From an archaeon (GTDB lineage Archaea; Nanobdellota; Nanobdellia; CSSed11-243R1), in assembly GCA_024277205.1 (NCBI GenBank), contig JAJRVP010000021.1, forward strand, positions 25,130-89,129: a stretch of DNA of 64,000 bases, written 5' to 3'. The notes under the pieces are model-generated. The model was given only the letters and a program-made list of their open reading frames with translations, was not told the DNA's origin and searched no databases. Positions 3,245 through 64,000 of the stretch are shown piece by piece. Position numbers and translations under genes: made by a program. The stretch's first letter is position 1; each line of letters begins with the position of its first letter.

Positions 3245-3426
<182 letters not shown>

Positions 3427-3948: not shown

Positions 3949-3957
3949 CACCAAAAG

Positions 3958-4213
3958 CGCCGGGGGTGGGAATTTCCTTCGGCAAAACACGGCTTTTGCC
4001 GAATTTCGAATTCGTGGCACCCCCAGAGTTCTCTTTTCCGGGCGCGCTTTTCTCTTTCAAGAGAAAATGGTGCTCCCACGCATCCCGAAGGAAACTGGCT
4101 ATCAACGCACCTTTTTGGTCGAGCTTTTTTTCAAAAAGGTCGTAGCAGGCCAGCGCCATAACCAGATTTCCCACACTTTTCTTTGGAAGAAAAGTTTTCT
4201 AGGCGACCCCGGC
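3958..4213 (-). tRNA. tRNA-Ser(GCU) with multiple insertions: D-loop about 4169-4198, canonical 37/38 at 4101-4142, and about 97 nt inside the T-arm (3971-4074)
   Basis: Minus-strand read: GCCGGGG TC GCCT AG[~30]AATCTGGTTAT GGCG CTGGC CTGCTA[42]A GCCAG, then a long variable arm TTTCCTTCGGGATGC, GTGGG[104 incl. T-loop]CCCAC CCCCGGC G. Acceptor, anticodon and T stems pair. Length after removing the insertions is about 87 nt, which fits a class II tRNA. The T-loop splice boundaries could not be resolved by eye. Confidence 0.65.
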
Positions 4214-4260
4214 AAAACTTTTTATTTTCTTTAACAAAACTTTCTTTTTAAGAAAGTTTT
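4214..4260 (-). repeat. Intron-like hairpin module filling the spacer between the SRP RNA 3' end and the tRNA-Ser 5' end
   Basis: Minus strand: AAAACTTTCTT AAA AAGAAAGTTTT GTT AAAGAAAATAAAAAG. This is the same pyrimidine arm / loop / purine arm / spacer / second purine arm layout as the tRNA introns. Confidence 0.6.
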
Positions 4261-4530
4261 GGGCGGGTGCGCCAACCCTTGAGAAGCCATACCAATGGCA
4301 GTCCCCAGGTTTTTTCTCCACCCCGGATCCTAAGAGCATACGCTATCCTGCTTAGGGCTGCTCGGTTCCCCGCCTGACCCGATTCACAGAATAACGCATC
4401 CCTTAGGGCGAGGCTTCTTAGATACAACCTAGGCTTACCAGAGATATGGCAACCCTCAGGTTGGCTTCAGCCCCCCATAAGGACGGTTTGGGGTTAACAG
4501 GCCACGCCCAACGGCCCACCTAACCCGCCC
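4261..4530 (-). ncRNA. ffs: Signal recognition particle RNA (7S/SRP RNA)
   Basis: A 270-nt GC-rich island. The 5' GGGCGGGT pairs with the 3' ACCCGCCC. Minus-strand GTCAGGCGGGGAACCGAGCAGCC...AAGCAGG (plus 4356-4378) matches the universally conserved helix-8 motif (E. coli 4.5S GGUCAGGUCCGGAAGGAAGCAGCC), including a GGAA tetraloop. Confidence 0.85.
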
Positions 4531-6203: not shown

Positions 6204-6276
6204 CCTCTTTTGCTTGAAAAGATAAAAGATTTTCTCTCTTAGTACAGGTTCTCTCTTTTCTAAAGAGAAAAAGTGC
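6204..6276 (-). repeat. Hairpin module (B-type) abutting the stop codon of CDS 6277-6774, plus a second small hairpin
   Basis: Minus strand after the stop: TAA GCAC TTTTTCTCTTT AGA AAAGAGAGAA CCTGTACT AAGAGAGAAAATC TTTTATC, then CTTTTCAAGCAAAAG. About 85% identical to the copy at 62631-62673. Confidence 0.6.
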
Positions 6277-6774
6277 TTACATGAAGCGCTGCATATGGAA
6301 GAATGCTTTCATCTCATTTTCAACAGTATGCATGTCAGTAGCTACTTTCTCTTTCCATGTATTAAATGTTGAACGATAGAAATAAACATCATATACTCCT
6401 TTTAGAAATTTGAGCAACGGATTTGTTTCCCATCTATTTTCATAGTCTGTCTGAATGTAACATTTCATCTCTAATTCTACTTCACCACTATTTTTTGTGG
6501 TTTGAACTCCTTCAACAACAACCTGCACTTTTTGAAGTCCTACTATCAATGTTTTTGCAAAAATTCTAAACAAGGAGTAATCATCAACTTTTTTATAACA
6601 ATTCCATTCAATTTCCACTTCGTCGCCTTCTGGTTTTGTTTTATGTTTATATTTTTGCTCTTCTACATCGTACCCAAGGCTTCTAAATATATCATAAAGG
6701 AGCCTATAGTAATCTCCAAAATCAAAAATCCCTTTATACTTCATACGTGATTTTGTTATGGTTATTTCTTCCAT
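6277..6774 (-). CDS. Hypothetical protein
   Basis: Long ORF. ATG at 6774 is preceded by GGGTGA and overlaps the stop of the upstream CBS gene (GGGTGAAAATG). No recognisable motif. Confidence 0.55.
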   Translation of the reverse strand: MEEITITKSRMKYKGIFDFGDYYRLLYDIFRSLGYDVEEQKYKHKTKPEGDEVEIEWNCYKKVDDYSLFRIFAKTLIVGLQKVQVVVEGVQTTKNSGEVELEMKCYIQTDYENRWETNPLLKFLKGVYDVYFYRSTFNTWKEKVATDMHTVENEMKAFFHMQRFM

Positions 6775-6776
6775 TT

Positions 6777-7232
6777 TCACCCTCTCGGATAATATGTTAA
6801 TTTTAAAGATGGTTCTCGAATTTTAAGTTTTTCAATTAACACATCAATAATACCAGGTTCGACCTTTAATAAATCTTTTTCGCTTAAATAGCCAACAACC
6901 TTTCCATTATCTACAACTGGAAATTTTCTAATTCCTTTTTTATTCATTATCTGTGCAACCTTTGACAAATCATCATTAGGATTAACAGTAATTGGTTTTC
7001 TTGTCATTATCTCTTTTACTTTTGTCTTAGTTGGACTTTTGTTTTTGATAAATGCTCTTTTTAATATATCTCCCTCTGTTACTATGCCCACTAAAACTCC
7101 TTTGTCAAGCACCAAAATAGAGCCTATTTTACGCTTAGCCATCAATCTTGCTGCTTTACCAATGCTTGTATCTGGACTAACAAAAATGGGTTTTCTTGTC
7201 ATTATCTCTCTAACTCTAATTCTGTATTTCAT
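6777..7232 (-). CDS. CBS domain pair protein
   Basis: 151 aa with two CBS repeats: IMTRKPIFVSPDTSIGKAARLMAKRKIGSILVLD..VGIVTEGDIL and IMTRKPITVNPNDDLSKVAQIMNKKGIRKFPVVDNGKVVGYLSEKDLL. Confidence 0.85.
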   Translation of the reverse strand: MKYRIRVREIMTRKPIFVSPDTSIGKAARLMAKRKIGSILVLDKGVLVGIVTEGDILKRAFIKNKSPTKTKVKEIMTRKPITVNPNDDLSKVAQIMNKKGIRKFPVVDNGKVVGYLSEKDLLKVEPGIIDVLIEKLKIREPSLKLTYYPRG

Positions 7233-10775: not shown

Positions 10776-11447
10776 TTAAGGAGACCAAGGTGCTTTTCCA
10801 TCGCGCCACTGCAATGGATGCCCTATTTCTATTGACTCAACTAAGAAATCATTATCAACAATAAATCTTACAACTTTTGCAACATCTTCTGGATTTAAGA
10901 GTGTTTTAATTTCTGAACCAAAGGTATTCACGCCCCACGAATAAATTACTAAAATTTTTACTTTTTCTTGTAACTCTTTTCTTAATATCTCTGCAAACTT
11001 GGAAATGCCTACTTTTGTAGCTGCATAAACAGACTCTCCAATTATTCCTGTTTTTGCAGCCATGGAAGACATAAAAATAATATGTGGTTTTTTGCTTTTC
11101 ATCAGAAGTGGAAGCAGCTCTTTTGTTAACAAAATATGTGATTTTAGATTTATATCTATTTGAGAATTAATTTCTTCGATAGACATATCACTAAATTTTT
11201 TAAGAACAATTATCCCAACATTATTTATTAATAAATCAATTTTATCTGTTTTTGATTTTATATCCTCAGCGAGTTTGATAACATTTTCTGAATCTCTAAA
11301 ATCATATCCAAAGAGGTGATATTTCTGAAAAAATTCATCTTTAAATGAATCCAGAGATGAAGCAACCAAAAATAATTCTCCATCTTTAAACTCTTTTGCC
11401 TCAGCAAATCCAATGCCTCTACTTGCACCTGTTATCACAATCTTCAT
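10776..11447 (-). CDS. Short-chain dehydrogenase/reductase (SDR) family oxidoreductase
   Basis: N-terminal Rossmann motif MKIVITGASRGIG and catalytic YAATKVGISKF (YxxxK). Confidence 0.8.
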   Translation of the reverse strand: MKIVITGASRGIGFAEAKEFKDGELFLVASSLDSFKDEFFQKYHLFGYDFRDSENVIKLAEDIKSKTDKIDLLINNVGIIVLKKFSDMSIEEINSQIDINLKSHILLTKELLPLLMKSKKPHIIFMSSMAAKTGIIGESVYAATKVGISKFAEILRKELQEKVKILVIYSWGVNTFGSEIKTLLNPEDVAKVVRFIVDNDFLVESIEIGHPLQWRDGKAPWSP

Positions 11448-11497
11448 TTTCCCACCATTTCTCTTTGGTAAAGCTTTCTCTTTCTAAGAGAAAGGTT
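11448..11497 (-). repeat. tRNA-intron-like hairpin module (A-type) filling the proS stop to SDR start spacer
   Basis: Minus strand: TAA AACC TTTCTCTT AGA AAGAGAAAG CTTTACC AAAGAGAAATGGTGG GAAA ATG. Its architecture is nearly the same as the tRNA-Val D-loop intron (AAACC TTTTCTT CCC AAGAAAAG CTTTACC AAAAGAAGGG). Confidence 0.6.
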
Positions 11498-12994
11498 TTA
11501 GTATTGTCTTGCAACCCAAACAATAACTTTTGCTTGTTTTCCACAAACAGCACATTTTTTACCTTTTGCTTTTTTCTCTGAATTTTTCACACATTCTTCT
11601 ACACTTTTCTCATTATTTGCAAAAAGTTGAATACCCCGAACTTTGATTGTCTGCTCTTTTAATTTGTCAACGCATTCTTGTGAATTACAAAATGGGATTT
11701 CAACAAGATGTATGCCCGCATTTATTTTCTTTAAAATCTCATCAAAGTTTTTGGCTTTAGCTCTTTTGAAACTTTCTTCTGCTTTTACAAACATTAGTTC
11801 TGTAATCTCTTCAAACTTCTTTTCAATTAATTTAGAATTTAATTTATCAAGTGGAATAAATTCCTTGTTCCTATCAAGACGCCTTACAAGAACCACTTGA
11901 TTTTTCTCTATGTCTTTTGGCCCAATTTCAATTCTAAGTGGCACCCCTTTTAAATCCCATTCATTAAATTTCCAACCAGGTGTATAATCTTCACGAGAAT
12001 CCATTTCTATTCTAAATTGTTTTAATTTTGCTTTAACTTTTTTTGCAACTTTTAGAACTTTTTCTTTATCTTTTTCTTTGTAATAAATTGGAATTATGAT
12101 TATTTGTAATGGTGCAACTTTTGGGGGCAAAATAATCCCATTATCATCCCCATGGATTGCTGCAAGCATACCTAAAATTTTACTAATACCCATACCAAAA
12201 GAAGTCTGATAACAATATCGCTTTTTATTATTTTTATCAGTATAAGCTACATCAAATGGTTTTGAAAAATGCAATCCCAAGTTATGGGTTGTTCCTATCT
12301 GAGAAACTTTTCCATCTGGCAAAGGAGAATCATATGCGCAAGTATAATCTGCTCCTGCAAATTTGTCCCATTCTGGCCTTTTAAAAAGCATAAATGGTAT
12401 TGCTAATTTTTCTTTAATCACTTTTGTGAATATCTCCATATCTTCTCTTACTTGCAAATCAGCATGTTTATTATCGATTTGTGCTGTATGTGCTTCAATC
12501 CAATAGAATTCGCAAGTCCTTAATAATGGAAAAATAGCATTAGTTCTTTCAGCGCGAAAGCTTGGGCGTGTCTCAAAAATTTTAAATGGCAAATCTTTGT
12601 AAGTTTGTATCCAGTAACTAAAGTAAGGATACATAACAGCTTCTCCTGTTGGCCGCAAAACTTTTGGTACTTCTAAATCTTTACCGCCATGTCCCTTTGT
12701 TATTACAAAAACTTCTGGTGCAAATCCTGTTGCGTGTTCTTTTTCTTTTTCTAATAATGTAATTGGAAATGCTGTTGGTGTTCTTATTGAATTATGATTT
12801 TTATCAAGAAGTTCTTTTTCAAAAAGAAATTCTATTTGTCTTAAAATTGTTGCACCCCAAGGCGGATATCCATAAAATCCTCTTGAGTGTTCAAGCCTTT
12901 TATCAACTAACCCACATTTAAGAACAATTTGCTCGTACCACTCACTAAAATCCTTTTTCTTTACAGTTATGCCCTGTGTTTTCTCTTCAACCAT
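11498..12994 (-). CDS. proS: Prolyl-tRNA synthetase (archaeal/eukaryotic type)
   Basis: Class II aaRS. The N-terminus FSEWYEQIVLKCGLVD... and the C-terminal terminal Tyr (ARQY) are typical of archaeal ProRS. Start is taken at the internal MVEEK (12994), because the longer ORF would overlap the metG start. Confidence 0.85.
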   Translation of the reverse strand: MVEEKTQGITVKKKDFSEWYEQIVLKCGLVDKRLEHSRGFYGYPPWGATILRQIEFLFEKELLDKNHNSIRTPTAFPITLLEKEKEHATGFAPEVFVITKGHGGKDLEVPKVLRPTGEAVMYPYFSYWIQTYKDLPFKIFETRPSFRAERTNAIFPLLRTCEFYWIEAHTAQIDNKHADLQVREDMEIFTKVIKEKLAIPFMLFKRPEWDKFAGADYTCAYDSPLPDGKVSQIGTTHNLGLHFSKPFDVAYTDKNNKKRYCYQTSFGMGISKILGMLAAIHGDDNGIILPPKVAPLQIIIIPIYYKEKDKEKVLKVAKKVKAKLKQFRIEMDSREDYTPGWKFNEWDLKGVPLRIEIGPKDIEKNQVVLVRRLDRNKEFIPLDKLNSKLIEKKFEEITELMFVKAEESFKRAKAKNFDEILKKINAGIHLVEIPFCNSQECVDKLKEQTIKVRGIQLFANNEKSVEECVKNSEKKAKGKKCAVCGKQAKVIVWVARQY

Positions 12995-15034: not shown

Positions 15035-15151
15035 GGCCCGGTAGCTTAGCCTGGTTGGAGCGCAATCTTTTTGCAAGCAAAAAGCTTGACCAAAAAGATG
15101 TTCAGACGGCTGATAACCGTGAGGTCGAGAGTTCAAATCTCTCCCGGGCCA
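15035..15151 (+). tRNA. tRNA-Ile(GAU) with a 42-nt non-canonical intron in the anticodon stem (about 27/28; 15064-15105)
   Basis: GGCCCGG TA GCTT AGCCTGGTTG GAGC G C[AATCTTTTTGCAAGCAAAAAGCTTGACCAAAAAGATGTTCAG]ACGG CTGATAA CCGTG AGGTC GAGAG TTCAAAT CTCTC CCGGGCC A. All four stems pair after excision, and the spliced length is 75 nt. Confidence 0.85.
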
Positions 15152-62630: not shown

Positions 62631-62673
62631 ACTTTTTCTCTTAGTGCAGGTTCTCTTTTTTAAAGAGAAAGTG
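62631..62673 (-). repeat. Hairpin module (B-type) abutting the stop codon of the Lhr-like gene and lying between convergent genes
   Basis: Minus strand: TAG CAC TTTCTCTTT AAA AAAGAGAA CCTGCACT AAGAGAAAAAG TTTTATC. Near-identical to the copy at 6229-6276. Confidence 0.6.
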
Positions 62674-64000
62674 CTACCAGAACATCCTAGTTTCAATAAA
62701 ACTTCTTTCAGCATTTACAATGTCTTTTATTAAATCTTCTTCAGTTCGATGGAATCTCCCCAAAATTCTTTTTCCAATTGTGGGTCCAATCCCATAACCT
62801 GCTAAAACAAAAACAGCTTTTTTGCCGTAGTTTATGAATATTTCAGCAGTTTCGCTGAACTTTTTAAACAAAACCATCTCTTCTTGAGTTAAATTTGATT
62901 TATTAAAATACTTCTTTAAAACTTTTTTAGCTAACTCTAAATCCCGCGCAGGAATAAAACCAATTAATTTTGCTTCGCAATTAGGACATTTTAAATTTTC
63001 AGGCAAACTTTGAACCGTGTAACTACCAATCTCATGCCCGCAATTTAAACAAGCAAACCAAAATCTTCTTTTTAAAAGTCGTTGTTTAACTAAATCATAA
63101 ATCTCTTTTATTTTCTCCTTTGGTTTTATTAAGGATACACTACTATAATCCAGCCCTTCTGCTCCGAGTGGAGAAACTTCATAACCAGAAGAGGTTATCA
63201 AATCTATTTTTCCACTTTTTATTTTACTCAAAATTTTTTTTGCATTTTTTACATCAAGTTTCTCCCTAAATAATTCTTTAATTGTTTCTTGATAAATAAG
63301 AGTATTTTGATAAACATCAATAAGTTTCGAAATCATTGCTTGTGAAAATTCTGCATCTTTGTCAATGATACCAAATCTTCGTGCGATTTGATAAAATCTA
63401 TATGCAAATATTGATGAATTTTTAATGGATTTCATCAAGATAGATTCTATCCATTCTGGCTCTATCTCATTAATACATTCAATGACAGTTTCTTGTCCAA
63501 ATAATTCTGGCATCTTAAATAAAATTCTATATGCGTCGCTTCTTACCCCAATAGAAGAACCAATTTTTGAGGATATCATAGCACCAATCACTTTAGAAAG
63601 AGTTTGATTTACTTTACTCCCAAAACAAGAATGGAGAATAACATAATTTTCAAAAGATTCTAAATACATTTTTTCGCTTGTCGGAACAACAAATTTTTCC
63701 TTTTGTTTTTTTAAATCTCCAAATTCAATCTCTTCTCTTAAATCCCCAGAAAGCTTTGCGATTTCCATTGGCACTGGGATTAACTCACCTTCCCAGCTTG
63801 GTATTGCACCCTCTTTGTTATTACTTGAGATTACCCTTATTTTATCATCTTCTTTTTCAACAACTTTCCATGGCTCTCCTCGCATTATAAATTCTGCATT
63901 TTTCTTGATATATTGCGCTACAAAACCCTGATGGAGCACACCAATCCTTTTGTTTAAATCTGCTGCAATAACTTTGTAATTTTTTTCATGAGGAATTGTT
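62674..64000 (-). CDS. Lhr-like large helicase, C-terminal part (the gene continues beyond the window end)
   Basis: The frame stays open upstream of the listed GTG (63939) to base 64000. It contains a zinc ribbon CLNCGHE...CPNCEAK and a terminal helix-hairpin-helix-like GYGIGPTIGKRILGRF, as in archaeal Lhr/Hel308-associated C-terminal domains. Confidence 0.55.
   Translation of the reverse strand, partial: TIPHEKNYKVIAADLNKRIGVLHQGFVAQYIKKNAEFIMRGEPWKVVEKEDDKIRVISSNNKEGAIPSWEGELIPVPMEIAKLSGDLREEIEFGDLKKQKEKFVVPTSEKMYLESFENYVILHSCFGSKVNQTLSKVIGAMISSKIGSSIGVRSDAYRILFKMPELFGQETVIECINEIEPEWIESILMKSIKNSSIFAYRFYQIARRFGIIDKDAEFSQAMISKLIDVYQNTLIYQETIKELFREKLDVKNAKKILSKIKSGKIDLITSSGYEVSPLGAEGLDYSSVSLIKPKEKIKEIYDLVKQRLLKRRFWFACLNCGHEIGSYTVQSLPENLKCPNCEAKLIGFIPARDLELAKKVLKKYFNKSNLTQEEMVLFKKFSETAEIFINYGKKAVFVLAGYGIGPTIGKRILGRFHRTEEDLIKDIVNAERSFIETRMFW

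What the first reader, a model, noticed from the sequence alone, without database searches (positions are those of the whole stretch)
11448..11497. tRNA-intron-type module sits exactly between the proS stop and the SDR start
The whole 50-nt spacer between two co-directional protein genes is one A-type module. It begins 1 nt after the TAA of proS. It ends in GGTGG, which serves as the Shine-Dalgarno for the SDR ATG 4 nt later. Its sequence is closest to the D-loop intron of tRNA-Val, sharing AAACC...AAGA.AAAG CTTTACC AAA.GA.

The module's alternative pairings could occlude or expose the SDR ribosome-binding site. Alternatively it could mark an endonucleolytic cut separating the two cistrons.
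Basis: partly seen in the sequence, partly recalled or inferred. Interest (0 to 1): 0.7.

Follow-up and report, generated by a model that had tools for sequence, protein, structure and literature searches.

The report
Intron-like hairpin module after proS
The 50-base gap between two genes of an uncultivated DPANN archaeon is one copy of a small folded RNA module that this genome also uses as the core of its tRNA introns and right after other genes' stop codons; relatives conserve it, but nothing marks it as a splice or cleavage site.

Summary
Window 11448-11497 (minus strand) lies between the proS stop and the SDR start. It is one module: pyrimidine arm X, 3-nt loop, purine arm X'1, linker CTTTACC, second purine arm X'2, then GGTGG-GAAA-ATG.

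A covariance model trained only on four tRNA-intron copies finds the spacer at 35.6 bits (E about 1e-6). The best background hit scores about 16 bits.

The same element follows the proS stop in five related lineages, whatever gene lies downstream. It is 79-95% identical in three lineages whose synonymous sites are saturated. In one lineage all three arms changed in a compensating way. In a nested relative, proS and SDR are only 7 nt apart and the element is absent.

In real introns X:X'2 is the helix next to the bulge-helix-bulge splice motif. No such motif flanks the spacer copies. Sister copies sit 3-4 nt after other stop codons, after tRNA 3' ends and after SRP RNA.

The most likely reading is a conserved hairpin cassette at the end of the gene, acting on the proS message. 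Here it is read through and only incidentally pairs with the SDR ribosome-binding site. The function is inferred, not shown.

The parts
11498..12994 (-). proS (prolyl-tRNA synthetase, 498 aa from the ATG used by homologues); stop TAA at 11498-11500
   Evidence: ORF list; Pfam tRNA-synt_2b, HGTP_anticodon, ProRS-C_1; 498-aa homologues
11448..11497 (-). the whole 50-nt proS-SDR spacer: one A-type module (11458-11497) plus the tail TGGTGGGAAA
   Evidence: sequence; covariance-model hit 11458-11497, 35.6 bits, E=1.1e-6
11486..11496 (-). arm X, ACCTTTCTCTT (all pyrimidine after the A). CTTTCTCTT pairs with X'1. ACC plus TTTCTCTT pairs with X'2 plus GGT.
   Evidence: fold; conformer energies; pair counts
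11483..11485 (-). hairpin loop AGA
   Evidence: MFE structure
11474..11482 (-). purine arm X'1, AAGAGAAAG (9 bp with X)
11467..11473 (-). linker CTTTACC (family consensus GCTYNACC). In the MFE fold of this copy, TTTACCA (11466-11472: the linker minus its first C, plus the first A of X'2) pairs with TGGTGGG.
   Evidence: alignments; fold
11454..11466 (-). purine arm X'2, AAAGAGAAA, plus TGGT (GGT pairs with ACC of X in the second conformer)
   Evidence: constrained fold -12.8 kcal/mol
11452..11456 (-). GGTGG, Shine-Dalgarno-like, 4 nt before the SDR ATG
   Evidence: sequence; GGTG-type motif enrichment; accessibility
10776..11447 (-). SDR gene (223 aa, adh_short)
3373..3410 (-). A-type module in the D-loop insert of tRNA-Val(GAC) (tRNA 3247-3426)
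3283..3333 (-). anticodon-loop intron of tRNA-Val(GAC), holding an A-type module (3293-3332). Canonical BHB whose inner helix is X:X'2 (12 bp).
4108..4141 (-). A-type module in the anticodon-loop insert of tRNA-Ser(GCU)
15064..15105 (+). 42-nt intron of tRNA-Ile(GAU) at position 27/28, holding an A-type module (15064-15100). Perfect hBHBh' whose inner helix is X:X'2 (9 bp).
4031..4072 (-). module with linker GCGCGCCCGG in the T-arm region insert of tRNA-Ser
6232..6275 (-). module with linker CCTGTACT, starting 4 nt after the stop of a 165-aa ORF (6277-6780). Orthologous copies occur in L031, L033 and L002.
62634..62673 (-). module with linker CCTGCACT, starting 3 nt after the stop of ORF 62674-63939 (DEAD_assoc)
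4224..4259 (-). module-like hairpin plus a half repeat, directly after the SRP RNA (4261-4530) and before tRNA-Ser

Best explanation
The spacer is one copy of a lineage-specific structured RNA module of about 40 nt. Its parts are a pyrimidine arm X, a 2-3-nt loop, a purine arm X'1, a conserved 7-9-nt linker and a second purine arm X'2. X can pair with either purine arm.

This DPANN clade uses the module in two settings. Inside tRNA genes it is the core of introns. There X:X'2 is the helix that abuts the bulge-helix-bulge splice motif, and a short intron tail complementary to the exon supplies the rest of the motif. Outside tRNA genes it sits 1-4 nt after the end of a gene (protein genes, tRNA, SRP RNA), in sense orientation and without a splice motif.

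The proS copy is of the second kind. It is transcribed with proS and inherited vertically. It is kept under purifying selection in part of the clade, whatever gene lies downstream.

Inferred mechanism: a stop-codon-proximal hairpin cassette acting on the upstream message. It would be a barrier to 3'-to-5' decay. Where an oligo-U run follows X'2, it would be part of 3'-end formation. It might also slow ribosomes arriving at the stop codon.

In this window the oligo-U run is replaced by the SDR ribosome-binding site and ATG. The element is therefore read through as an intercistronic hairpin. It partly pairs with the SD, which would make SDR translation depend on unwinding by ribosomes finishing proS.

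What is shown and what is inferred:
- Shown: family membership, both pairings, conservation, absence of a BHB, and positional pattern.
- Inferred: co-transcription and the stabilising or termination role.
For: - Family membership: the covariance model trained on tRNA-intron copies alone scores the spacer at 35.6 bits, E=1.1e-6. It also finds the orthologous and sister copies in relatives.
- Pairing: X:X'1 is 97.7% paired, with 5 of 8 pairs changed on both sides. The covariation score is 0.518 against 0.248 in shuffles (0/500), and all slid controls are lower.
- Module-specific arms: own-versus-other complementarity holds for X:X'1 (0/5000 permutations) and X:X'2 (2/5000). The conformers are -13.5 and -12.8 kcal/mol.
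- Conservation: the module directly follows the proS stop in the window, L004/L005, L002/L003, L001 and (degenerate) L006, with different downstream genes.
- Selection: proS 4-fold sites are saturated (0.51 and 0.34 identity, 0.39 expected by chance). The module is 41/43 and 34/43 identical. L002 changed all three arms in a compensating way.
- Position: sister copies lie 3-4 nt after three independent stop codons and after tRNA and SRP RNA 3' ends. Within the window all copies are in sense orientation.
- Oligo-T: X'2 is followed by T4-T6 where no gene follows directly, and not where one does.
- Real introns use X:X'2 as the BHB inner helix, while the spacers have no BHB.
Against: - There are no expression data, so co-transcription, 3' ends and stability effects are all inferred.
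- The element is absent in the nested L031/L032 lineage and degenerate in L006, so it is dispensable.
- A hairpin cassette that helps termination should be harmful inside tRNA genes, yet some intron copies carry T5 runs.
- Hairpin-dependent termination is not established for archaeal RNA polymerase (own knowledge).
- The reason for a second purine arm and a conserved linker is not explained by a simple protective hairpin.
- The model-fitted alignment leans towards the modelled helix (caveat).
Confidence: 0.45

Rival explanations
1. The module is a selfish or duplicative repeat. A small intron-derived (or intron-seeding) module spreads by insertion or local duplication into transcribed non-coding niches. 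The proS copy would be a tolerated insertion between the stop codon and a pre-existing SD, with no function of its own.
For: - Presence/absence at the orthologous junction: L031 has TGA-GGTAGAA-ATG, and the window looks like that junction plus about 41 nt.
- There is a tandem duplication in L004.
- Near-identical copies lie in the D-loop insert and the 3' trailer of one L001 tRNA.
- The two tRNA-Val inserts resemble each other most.
- The tRNA-Ile genes at the MetK locus have different intron positions or no intron.
- Similar introns at different tRNA positions are known as 'intron transposition' (PMC4090602).
Against: - The sequence is conserved far above saturated synonymous sites in three lineages.
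- All three arms changed in a compensating way in L002.
- The module after the 165-aa ORF is retained out to a 69%-identity outgroup.
- No target-site duplication is visible.
- No copies were found in coding sequence or in antisense orientation within the window.
- The 17-mer core on viral contigs occurs only in unrelated coding sequence.
Confidence: 0.2
2. The module is a cis-regulatory switch for SDR. The two pairings of X toggle access to the SDR ribosome-binding site.
For: - Two near-isoenergetic conformers exist.
- The SD GGUGG pairs with the linker UUUACC in the MFE fold, or with ACC of X in the alternative fold.
- GGTG-type SDs are used in this genome.
Against: - Both conformers pair the SD, so there is no exposed state.
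- The occlusion is unexceptional, 4th lowest of 16.
- The linker:SD pairing is not conserved in L004 or L002.
- The element persists without SDR (L001, L006) and is absent where SDR abuts proS (L031).
- The same module sits in tRNA introns and after genes with no downstream cistron.
Confidence: 0.1
3. The module is an RNA processing site, cut either by the splicing endonuclease through a relaxed motif or by another nuclease that recognises the module itself. The cut would separate the proS and SDR messages or release a small, possibly circular, RNA.
For: - It belongs to the same family as excised intron cores.
- BHB motifs occur in some archaeal pre-mRNAs and relaxed forms exist (PMC5829648).
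- The non-canonical D-loop inserts show only weak, relaxed motifs, so the local enzyme must be permissive.
- The L004 tandem copies can form a canonical BHB between their two loops.
Against: - No BHB uses the module helices in the window, L001, L002 or L006.
- The best strict score, 11, equals the mode of the shuffled null. The same scanner scores 14-16 on the canonical introns.
- The intron copies need an extra exon-complementary tail that the spacer lacks.
Confidence: 0.1
4. The spacer is an incidental hairpin, a chance resemblance or an assembly artefact.
For: The genome is AT-rich and low in complexity. The generic X-X'-X' architecture alone is not above chance.
Against: - The model hit has E about 1e-6 with a 20-bit gap to background.
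- The same element occurs at the same site in independent assemblies from JGI, ENA and NCBI.
- It is constrained relative to synonymous sites.
Confidence: 0.02

Closest known systems
Archaeal bulge-helix-bulge tRNA introns with shared sequences at different positions ('intron transposition', Thermoproteales; Fujishima et al. 2010, as cited in PMC4090602)
   Same: [quoted passage not shown] Intron positions turn over quickly between relatives.
   Different: The spacer copy lies outside any tRNA and has no BHB, no exon-complementary tail and nothing to restore by excision. The lineage is DPANN, not Thermoproteales. The literature searched here does not describe intron-core copies at mRNA 3' ends.
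Bacterial REP/BIME extragenic palindromes, including those closer than 16 nt to a stop codon (PMC12306157 and the study it cites)
   Same: It is a short repeated hairpin element in transcribed extragenic DNA, often immediately after a stop codon or between cistrons. REPs are credited with stabilising upstream mRNA and with lowering translation when close to the stop codon.
   Different: This is an archaeal lineage. The arms are strictly pyrimidine/purine, with a duplicated purine arm and a conserved linker. The arms vary and covary rather than being conserved copies. No RAYT-type transposase link was tested. The same family is also used inside tRNA introns.
Intrinsic terminator hairpins and archaeal oligo-T terminators
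   Same: In terminal contexts (L001, L006, two window genes, a tRNA trailer, SRP RNA), X'2 is followed within 0-3 nt by T4-T6. The X:X'2 helix plus U-run then has terminator geometry.
   Different: The window copy has no U-run and must be read through to express SDR. Copies also sit inside tRNA genes. Archaeal termination is not known to need a hairpin (own knowledge).
RBS-sequestering hairpins and translational coupling between adjacent cistrons
   Same: The SD of SDR is predicted to be paired, and the proS stop codon is 1 nt from arm X. A terminating ribosome would therefore melt the structure.
   Different: The pairing is not conserved with SDR, and the occlusion is ordinary for this genome. 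The element is not tied to a downstream gene.

Membership tests
Module family of this genome's tRNA introns (A-type) | Significant score against a sequence-and-structure model built only from the tRNA-intron copies | tested here: met
   35.6 bits, E=1.1e-6; background at most 16 bits
Module family of this genome's tRNA introns (A-type) | Architecture: pyrimidine arm, 2-3-nt loop, purine arm, linker GCTYNACC, second purine arm, in sense orientation | tested here: met
Archaeal BHB intron / splicing-endonuclease substrate | Two 3-nt bulges on opposite strands separated by a 4-bp helix | tested here: not met
   My own scanner scores 14-16 on tRNA-Ile and tRNA-Val introns. The best score in the spacer context is 11, the mode of the shuffled null, and no hit uses the module helices.
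Archaeal BHB intron / splicing-endonuclease substrate | An outer helix formed by the flanking 'exon' sequences | tested here: not met
   No complementarity exists between the proS 3' end and the SDR 5' end in the window, L001, L002 or L004.
Archaeal BHB intron / splicing-endonuclease substrate | Excision and ligation in vivo (linear or circular intron product) | not testable with these tools
   Needs RNA data or an enzyme assay.
Intrinsic (hairpin plus U-run) terminator | A stable hairpin followed at once by a U-run on the sense strand | tested here: not met
   The hairpin is present (-13.5 kcal/mol). No T-run follows in the window copy. One does follow in L001 (T6) and L006 (T5). The scan tool reports only an antisense site.
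REP-like extragenic palindrome | A repeated hairpin element confined to transcribed extragenic sequence, often within 16 nt of a stop codon | tested here: met
   About 9 copies in 64 kb, none in coding sequence. Three independent sites lie 3-4 nt after stops.
REP-like extragenic palindrome | Association with a RAYT/IS200-type transposase and conserved copy sequence | not tested
   No search for such a gene was made. The arms differ between copies and covary.
RBS-sequestering riboregulator of the downstream gene | The SD is sequestered in one state and free in another, and the element is conserved together with the regulated gene | tested here: not met
   Both conformers pair the SD. Accessibility is ordinary. 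The element is present without SDR and absent with it.
Any curated RNA family (Rfam 15), including C/D and H/ACA guide RNAs | A match to a curated covariance model | tested here: not met
   There are no hits at the spacer, even at E up to 5. No C/D or ACA boxes are seen by eye.

The most novel reading that the evidence does not exclude
The gene-end hairpin cassette and the tRNA-intron core are one evolving element family. New tRNA introns in this DPANN clade would arise when such a cassette is copied into a tRNA gene and gains a short exon-complementary tail that completes a bulge-helix-bulge motif. That would identify a concrete source for archaeal tRNA intron gain. A second unexcluded reading is that the always single-stranded, palindrome-rich linker is the docking site of a dedicated factor acting on a bistable switch.
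Probability: 0.2. Interest if true: 0.8.

Novelty: new variant of a known kind. Interest (0 to 1): 0.55.

Why it matters
How archaeal tRNA genes gain introns at many positions is an open question. 'Intron transposition' has been inferred from sequence similarity, but neither a source nor a mechanism is known (PMC4090602).

Here the same structured module is found as intron core and as a conserved cassette right after stop codons and RNA gene ends, in one compact DPANN genome and its relatives. This gives a concrete, testable link between intron cores and extragenic hairpin elements.

It also points to an undescribed 3'-end or intercistronic element class in DPANN archaea.

On the practical side, these inserts hide tRNA genes from standard finders. 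ARAGORN found none of the three tRNAs in the window, and Rfam found one.

Tried and rejected
- BHB around the spacer: strict and relaxed scans in the window and four orthologs found nothing above the shuffled null.
- Generic X-loop-X'-linker-X' search: not above a Markov null, so not usable on its own.
- Rfam at permissive thresholds: nothing at the spacer.
- Exact look-up of the SDR protein: not on record.
- Genome and metagenome scans with ProRS: only one new close relative, L006.
- Viral contigs with the 17-mer GAAAGCTTTACCAAAGA: 41 hits, all unrelated coding sequence without the hairpin.
- Promoter idea: CTTTACCAAA resembles the local TATA consensus and lies 25 nt before the SDR ATG. I rejected it because other family linkers (CTCAACC, CTTGACC, CTCGACC) are not TATA-like and the same motif sits inside tRNA genes.
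- Purine-motif triplex or H-DNA idea: X'1 and X'2 are at least as good as mirror repeats as they are as direct repeats in 11 of 14 modules (strictly better in 8). I did not adopt this. The informative copies (tRNA-Ile, tRNA-Ser anticodon insert, the L001 tRNA D-loop module) fit the direct-repeat reading better, and in L002 X'2 pairs with X while the mirror match is poor. The sequences are also of low complexity.
- Decayed tRNA gene in the spacer: rejected, because 50 nt holds no tRNA-like exons.
- Literature searches for a described equivalent in DPANN or other archaea found none.

Full report
**Setting.** The window is an AT-rich (about 32% GC) archaeal sequence. It carries an archaeal SRP RNA, a proteasome beta subunit, a KH/beta-CASP nuclease and several aminoacyl-tRNA synthetases. 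The closest ProRS homologues come from MAGs labelled Nanoarchaeota or Woesearchaeota, so this is the DPANN group.

The finding lies on the minus strand. ProS ends with TAA at 11498-11500, and the SDR gene (adh_short) starts with ATG at 11445-11447. The 50 nt between them read, in sense, AACCTTTCTCTTAGAAAGAGAAAGCTTTACCAAAGAGAAATGGTGGGAAA.

The spacer consists of these parts:
- a pyrimidine arm X (CTTTCTCTT, preceded by ACC)
- a 3-nt loop
- a purine arm X'1 (AAGAGAAAG)
- the linker CTTTACC
- a second purine arm X'2 (AAAGAGAAA, followed by TGGT)
- GGTGG, 4 nt before the ATG

The window holds three tRNA genes that default tools mostly miss. ARAGORN finds none and Rfam finds one.
- tRNA-Val(GAC), 3247-3426(-), has a D-loop insert and an anticodon-loop intron.
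- tRNA-Ser(GCU), about 3953-4213(-), has at least three inserts.
- tRNA-Ile(GAU), 15035-15151(+), has an intron at 27/28.

After in-silico removal of the inserts, ARAGORN calls tRNA-Ile(GAT) and tRNA-Val(GAC). Four of the inserts carry the same module with the invariant core AAAGCTYNACCAAA.

A covariance model built from these four intron copies alone scores the proS spacer at 35.6 bits (E=1.1e-6, filters off). No hit outside the family's own loci exceeds about 14 bits; only a partial hairpin hit inside tRNA-Ser (15.9) and a related B-type module (15.4) come closer.

The bare architecture (arm, loop, complementary arm, linker, repeated arm) is not above a Markov null (38 hits against 28-41). 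The signal lies in the all-pyrimidine arm, the short loop, the linker and the position.

**Both pairings are real.** Across eleven family members the X:X'1 helix is 97.7% paired, and 5 of 8 pairs changed on both sides. The covariation score is 0.518 against 0.248 in shuffles (0/500), and every slid control is lower. The caveat is that this alignment was fitted to the model.

Across fourteen modules, each X pairs better with its own X'1 and its own X'2 than with those of other modules (0/5000 and 2/5000 permutations). For the spacer the two conformers are nearly isoenergetic:
- X:X'1, plus a helix between the linker UUUACCA and UGGUGGG, at -13.5 kcal/mol
- X:X'2, including ACC:GGU, at -12.8 kcal/mol

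**What the module does in introns.** Its outer helix is TGGTTG/CGGCTG, its central helix is GAGC/GTTC, and its bulges are GC^A and AG^A. It also recovers a canonical motif for the tRNA-Val anticodon intron.

In both cases the helix next to the bulges is X:X'2 (9 and 12 bp). X'1 and the linker lie in the enclosed loop. A short intron tail complementary to the exon forms the central helix. The D-loop and T-arm inserts show only relaxed motifs. That fits the permissive endonucleases described for DPANN (PMC5829648).

**The spacer is not in a splice context.** The same scan finds no motif using the module helices around the proS-downstream modules of the window, L001, L002 and L006. The best strict score in the window context is 11, which is the mode of the shuffled null. 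Only the tandem pair in L004 gives a motif, formed between the two hairpin loops as a by-product of the duplication.

**Relatives.** Contigs encoding ProRS at 63-86% identity were fetched.
- The module directly follows the proS stop in the window, L004/L005 (two tandem copies), L002/L003, L001 and, in degenerate form, L006.
- The downstream gene there is SDR, an SDR remnant, or unrelated genes.
- It is absent in L031, where proS and SDR are separated only by GGTAGAA. It is also absent in L032 and in four outgroups, whose spacers hold a TATA-type promoter.
- On a ProRS tree the lineages without the module are nested among, or sister to, those with it.

The element therefore goes with the 3' end of proS, not with SDR, and it is dispensable. 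The window looks like an L031-type junction with about 41 nt inserted between the stop and the SD.

**Constraint.** ProS 4-fold degenerate sites are saturated between these genomes. Identity is 0.51 for window against L004 and 0.34 for window against L001, with 0.39 expected from composition. The module, by contrast, is 41/43 and 34/43 identical.
- In L001 two A-to-G changes in X'1 keep pairing with U. ACC and its partner GGU are lost together.
- In L002 all three arms are different and still mutually complementary.

This argues for selection on the structure in part of the clade.

**The wider family.** Modules of the same design with related linkers (CCTGYACT, CTGCACC, CGTTTACGG, CGTGCACGG, GCGCGCCCGG) occur in several places:
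- 3-4 nt after the stop of a 165-aa ORF. This is conserved in the window, L031, L033 and L002, which reaches a 69%-identity outgroup.
- 3 nt after the stop of ORF 62674-63939.
- Directly after the SRP RNA.
- In the 3' trailers of tRNAs in L001 and L036.

Within the window all copies are sense-oriented, and none lies in coding sequence. Where no gene follows at once, X'2 is followed within 0-3 nt by T4-T6. Where a gene follows directly there is no T-run.

**The SD.** GGTG(A/G) 4-8 nt before the ATG is common for operon-internal genes here (17 of 60 ORF starts against 8.5% background). Reading GGTGG as the SDR ribosome-binding site is therefore reasonable.

Its predicted accessibility (mean unpaired probability 0.16) ranks only 4th lowest of 16 SD-led genes. 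Both conformers pair it, so nothing points to an on/off switch.

**Interpretation.** The best-supported reading is that the spacer is a gene-end copy of a lineage-specific hairpin cassette that also serves as the structural core of tRNA introns.

At proS the cassette most likely acts on the upstream message. It could be a barrier to 3'-to-5' decay. With an oligo-U run it could be part of 3'-end formation. It could also slow terminating ribosomes, as reported for REP elements within 16 nt of stop codons (PMC12306157).

In this window it is read through to SDR and incidentally pairs with the SD. All functional steps are inferred.

**Rivals and literature.** The rivals are a neutral selfish insertion, an SDR riboswitch-like regulator, a processing site, and chance. 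They are weighed in their own sections.

No paper found in the searches here describes intron-core modules at mRNA 3' ends in archaea. The nearest concepts are tRNA 'intron transposition' (PMC4090602) and bacterial REP elements.

Noticed in passing
window 3247-3426(-), about 3953-4213(-), 15035-15151(+): Three tRNA genes (Val-GAC with two inserts, Ser-GCU with at least three, Ile-GAU with an intron at 27/28) are largely invisible to default ARAGORN and Rfam. The 3' part of tRNA-Ser (3960-4085) holds further hairpins and was not resolved.
   Followed up: partly
window 4213-4530(-): The SRP RNA is followed at once by a module-like hairpin (4224-4259) and then by tRNA-Ser. This suggests an SRP RNA-tRNA co-transcript.
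   Followed up: no
linkers of all modules, e.g. window 11467-11474, 6244-6251, 4044-4053; L001 6170-6180: The linkers are rich in short palindromes (AAGCTT, AGCT, GTAC, TGCA, TCGA, CGTGCACG, GCGCGC, CCGG). The A-type linker AGCTYNACC resembles tRNA positions 9-17 (AGCTYAGCC). Significance was not tested.
   Followed up: no
14 modules listed: The two purine arms are at least as good as mirror repeats as they are as direct repeats in 11 of 14 modules (strictly better in 8). All 5' arms are pure pyrimidine. Base pairing alone does not require this strand asymmetry, and it remains unexplained.
   Followed up: partly
L004 3425-3515: Two tandem module copies follow proS. Their hairpin loops can pair into a canonical bulge-helix-bulge that would excise exactly one repeat unit. 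The SDR gene behind them is a truncated remnant.
   Followed up: partly
L002 3211-3374 (same in L003): The 164-nt proS-SDR spacer holds a compensated module and a perfect 10-bp palindrome (ATGAGAACCA GC TGGTTCTCAT). It also holds a second module with linker CGCACCCTG.
   Followed up: no
L001 6138-6340; L033 1872-1945; L036 2551-2678; L032 1-57: The tRNA-Ile genes beside MetK differ in their inserts:
- L001 has a D-loop module, a canonical intron and a near-identical module in the 3' trailer.
- L033 has no intron.
- L036 has a canonical intron and a trailer module.
- L032 has a T-arm insert whose module reads antisense to the tRNA, cut off by the contig end.
   Followed up: partly
L001 9395-9906; L031 302-813; L035 6809-7317: ParE-like toxin gene pairs sit next to proS in several relatives but not in the window.
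   Followed up: no
window 11463-11473(-): CTTTACCAAAG resembles the local TATA/BRE consensus (CCTTTATAAA), and its TTTA starts 25 nt upstream of the SDR ATG. Other family linkers are not TATA-like, so I set this aside.
   Followed up: partly
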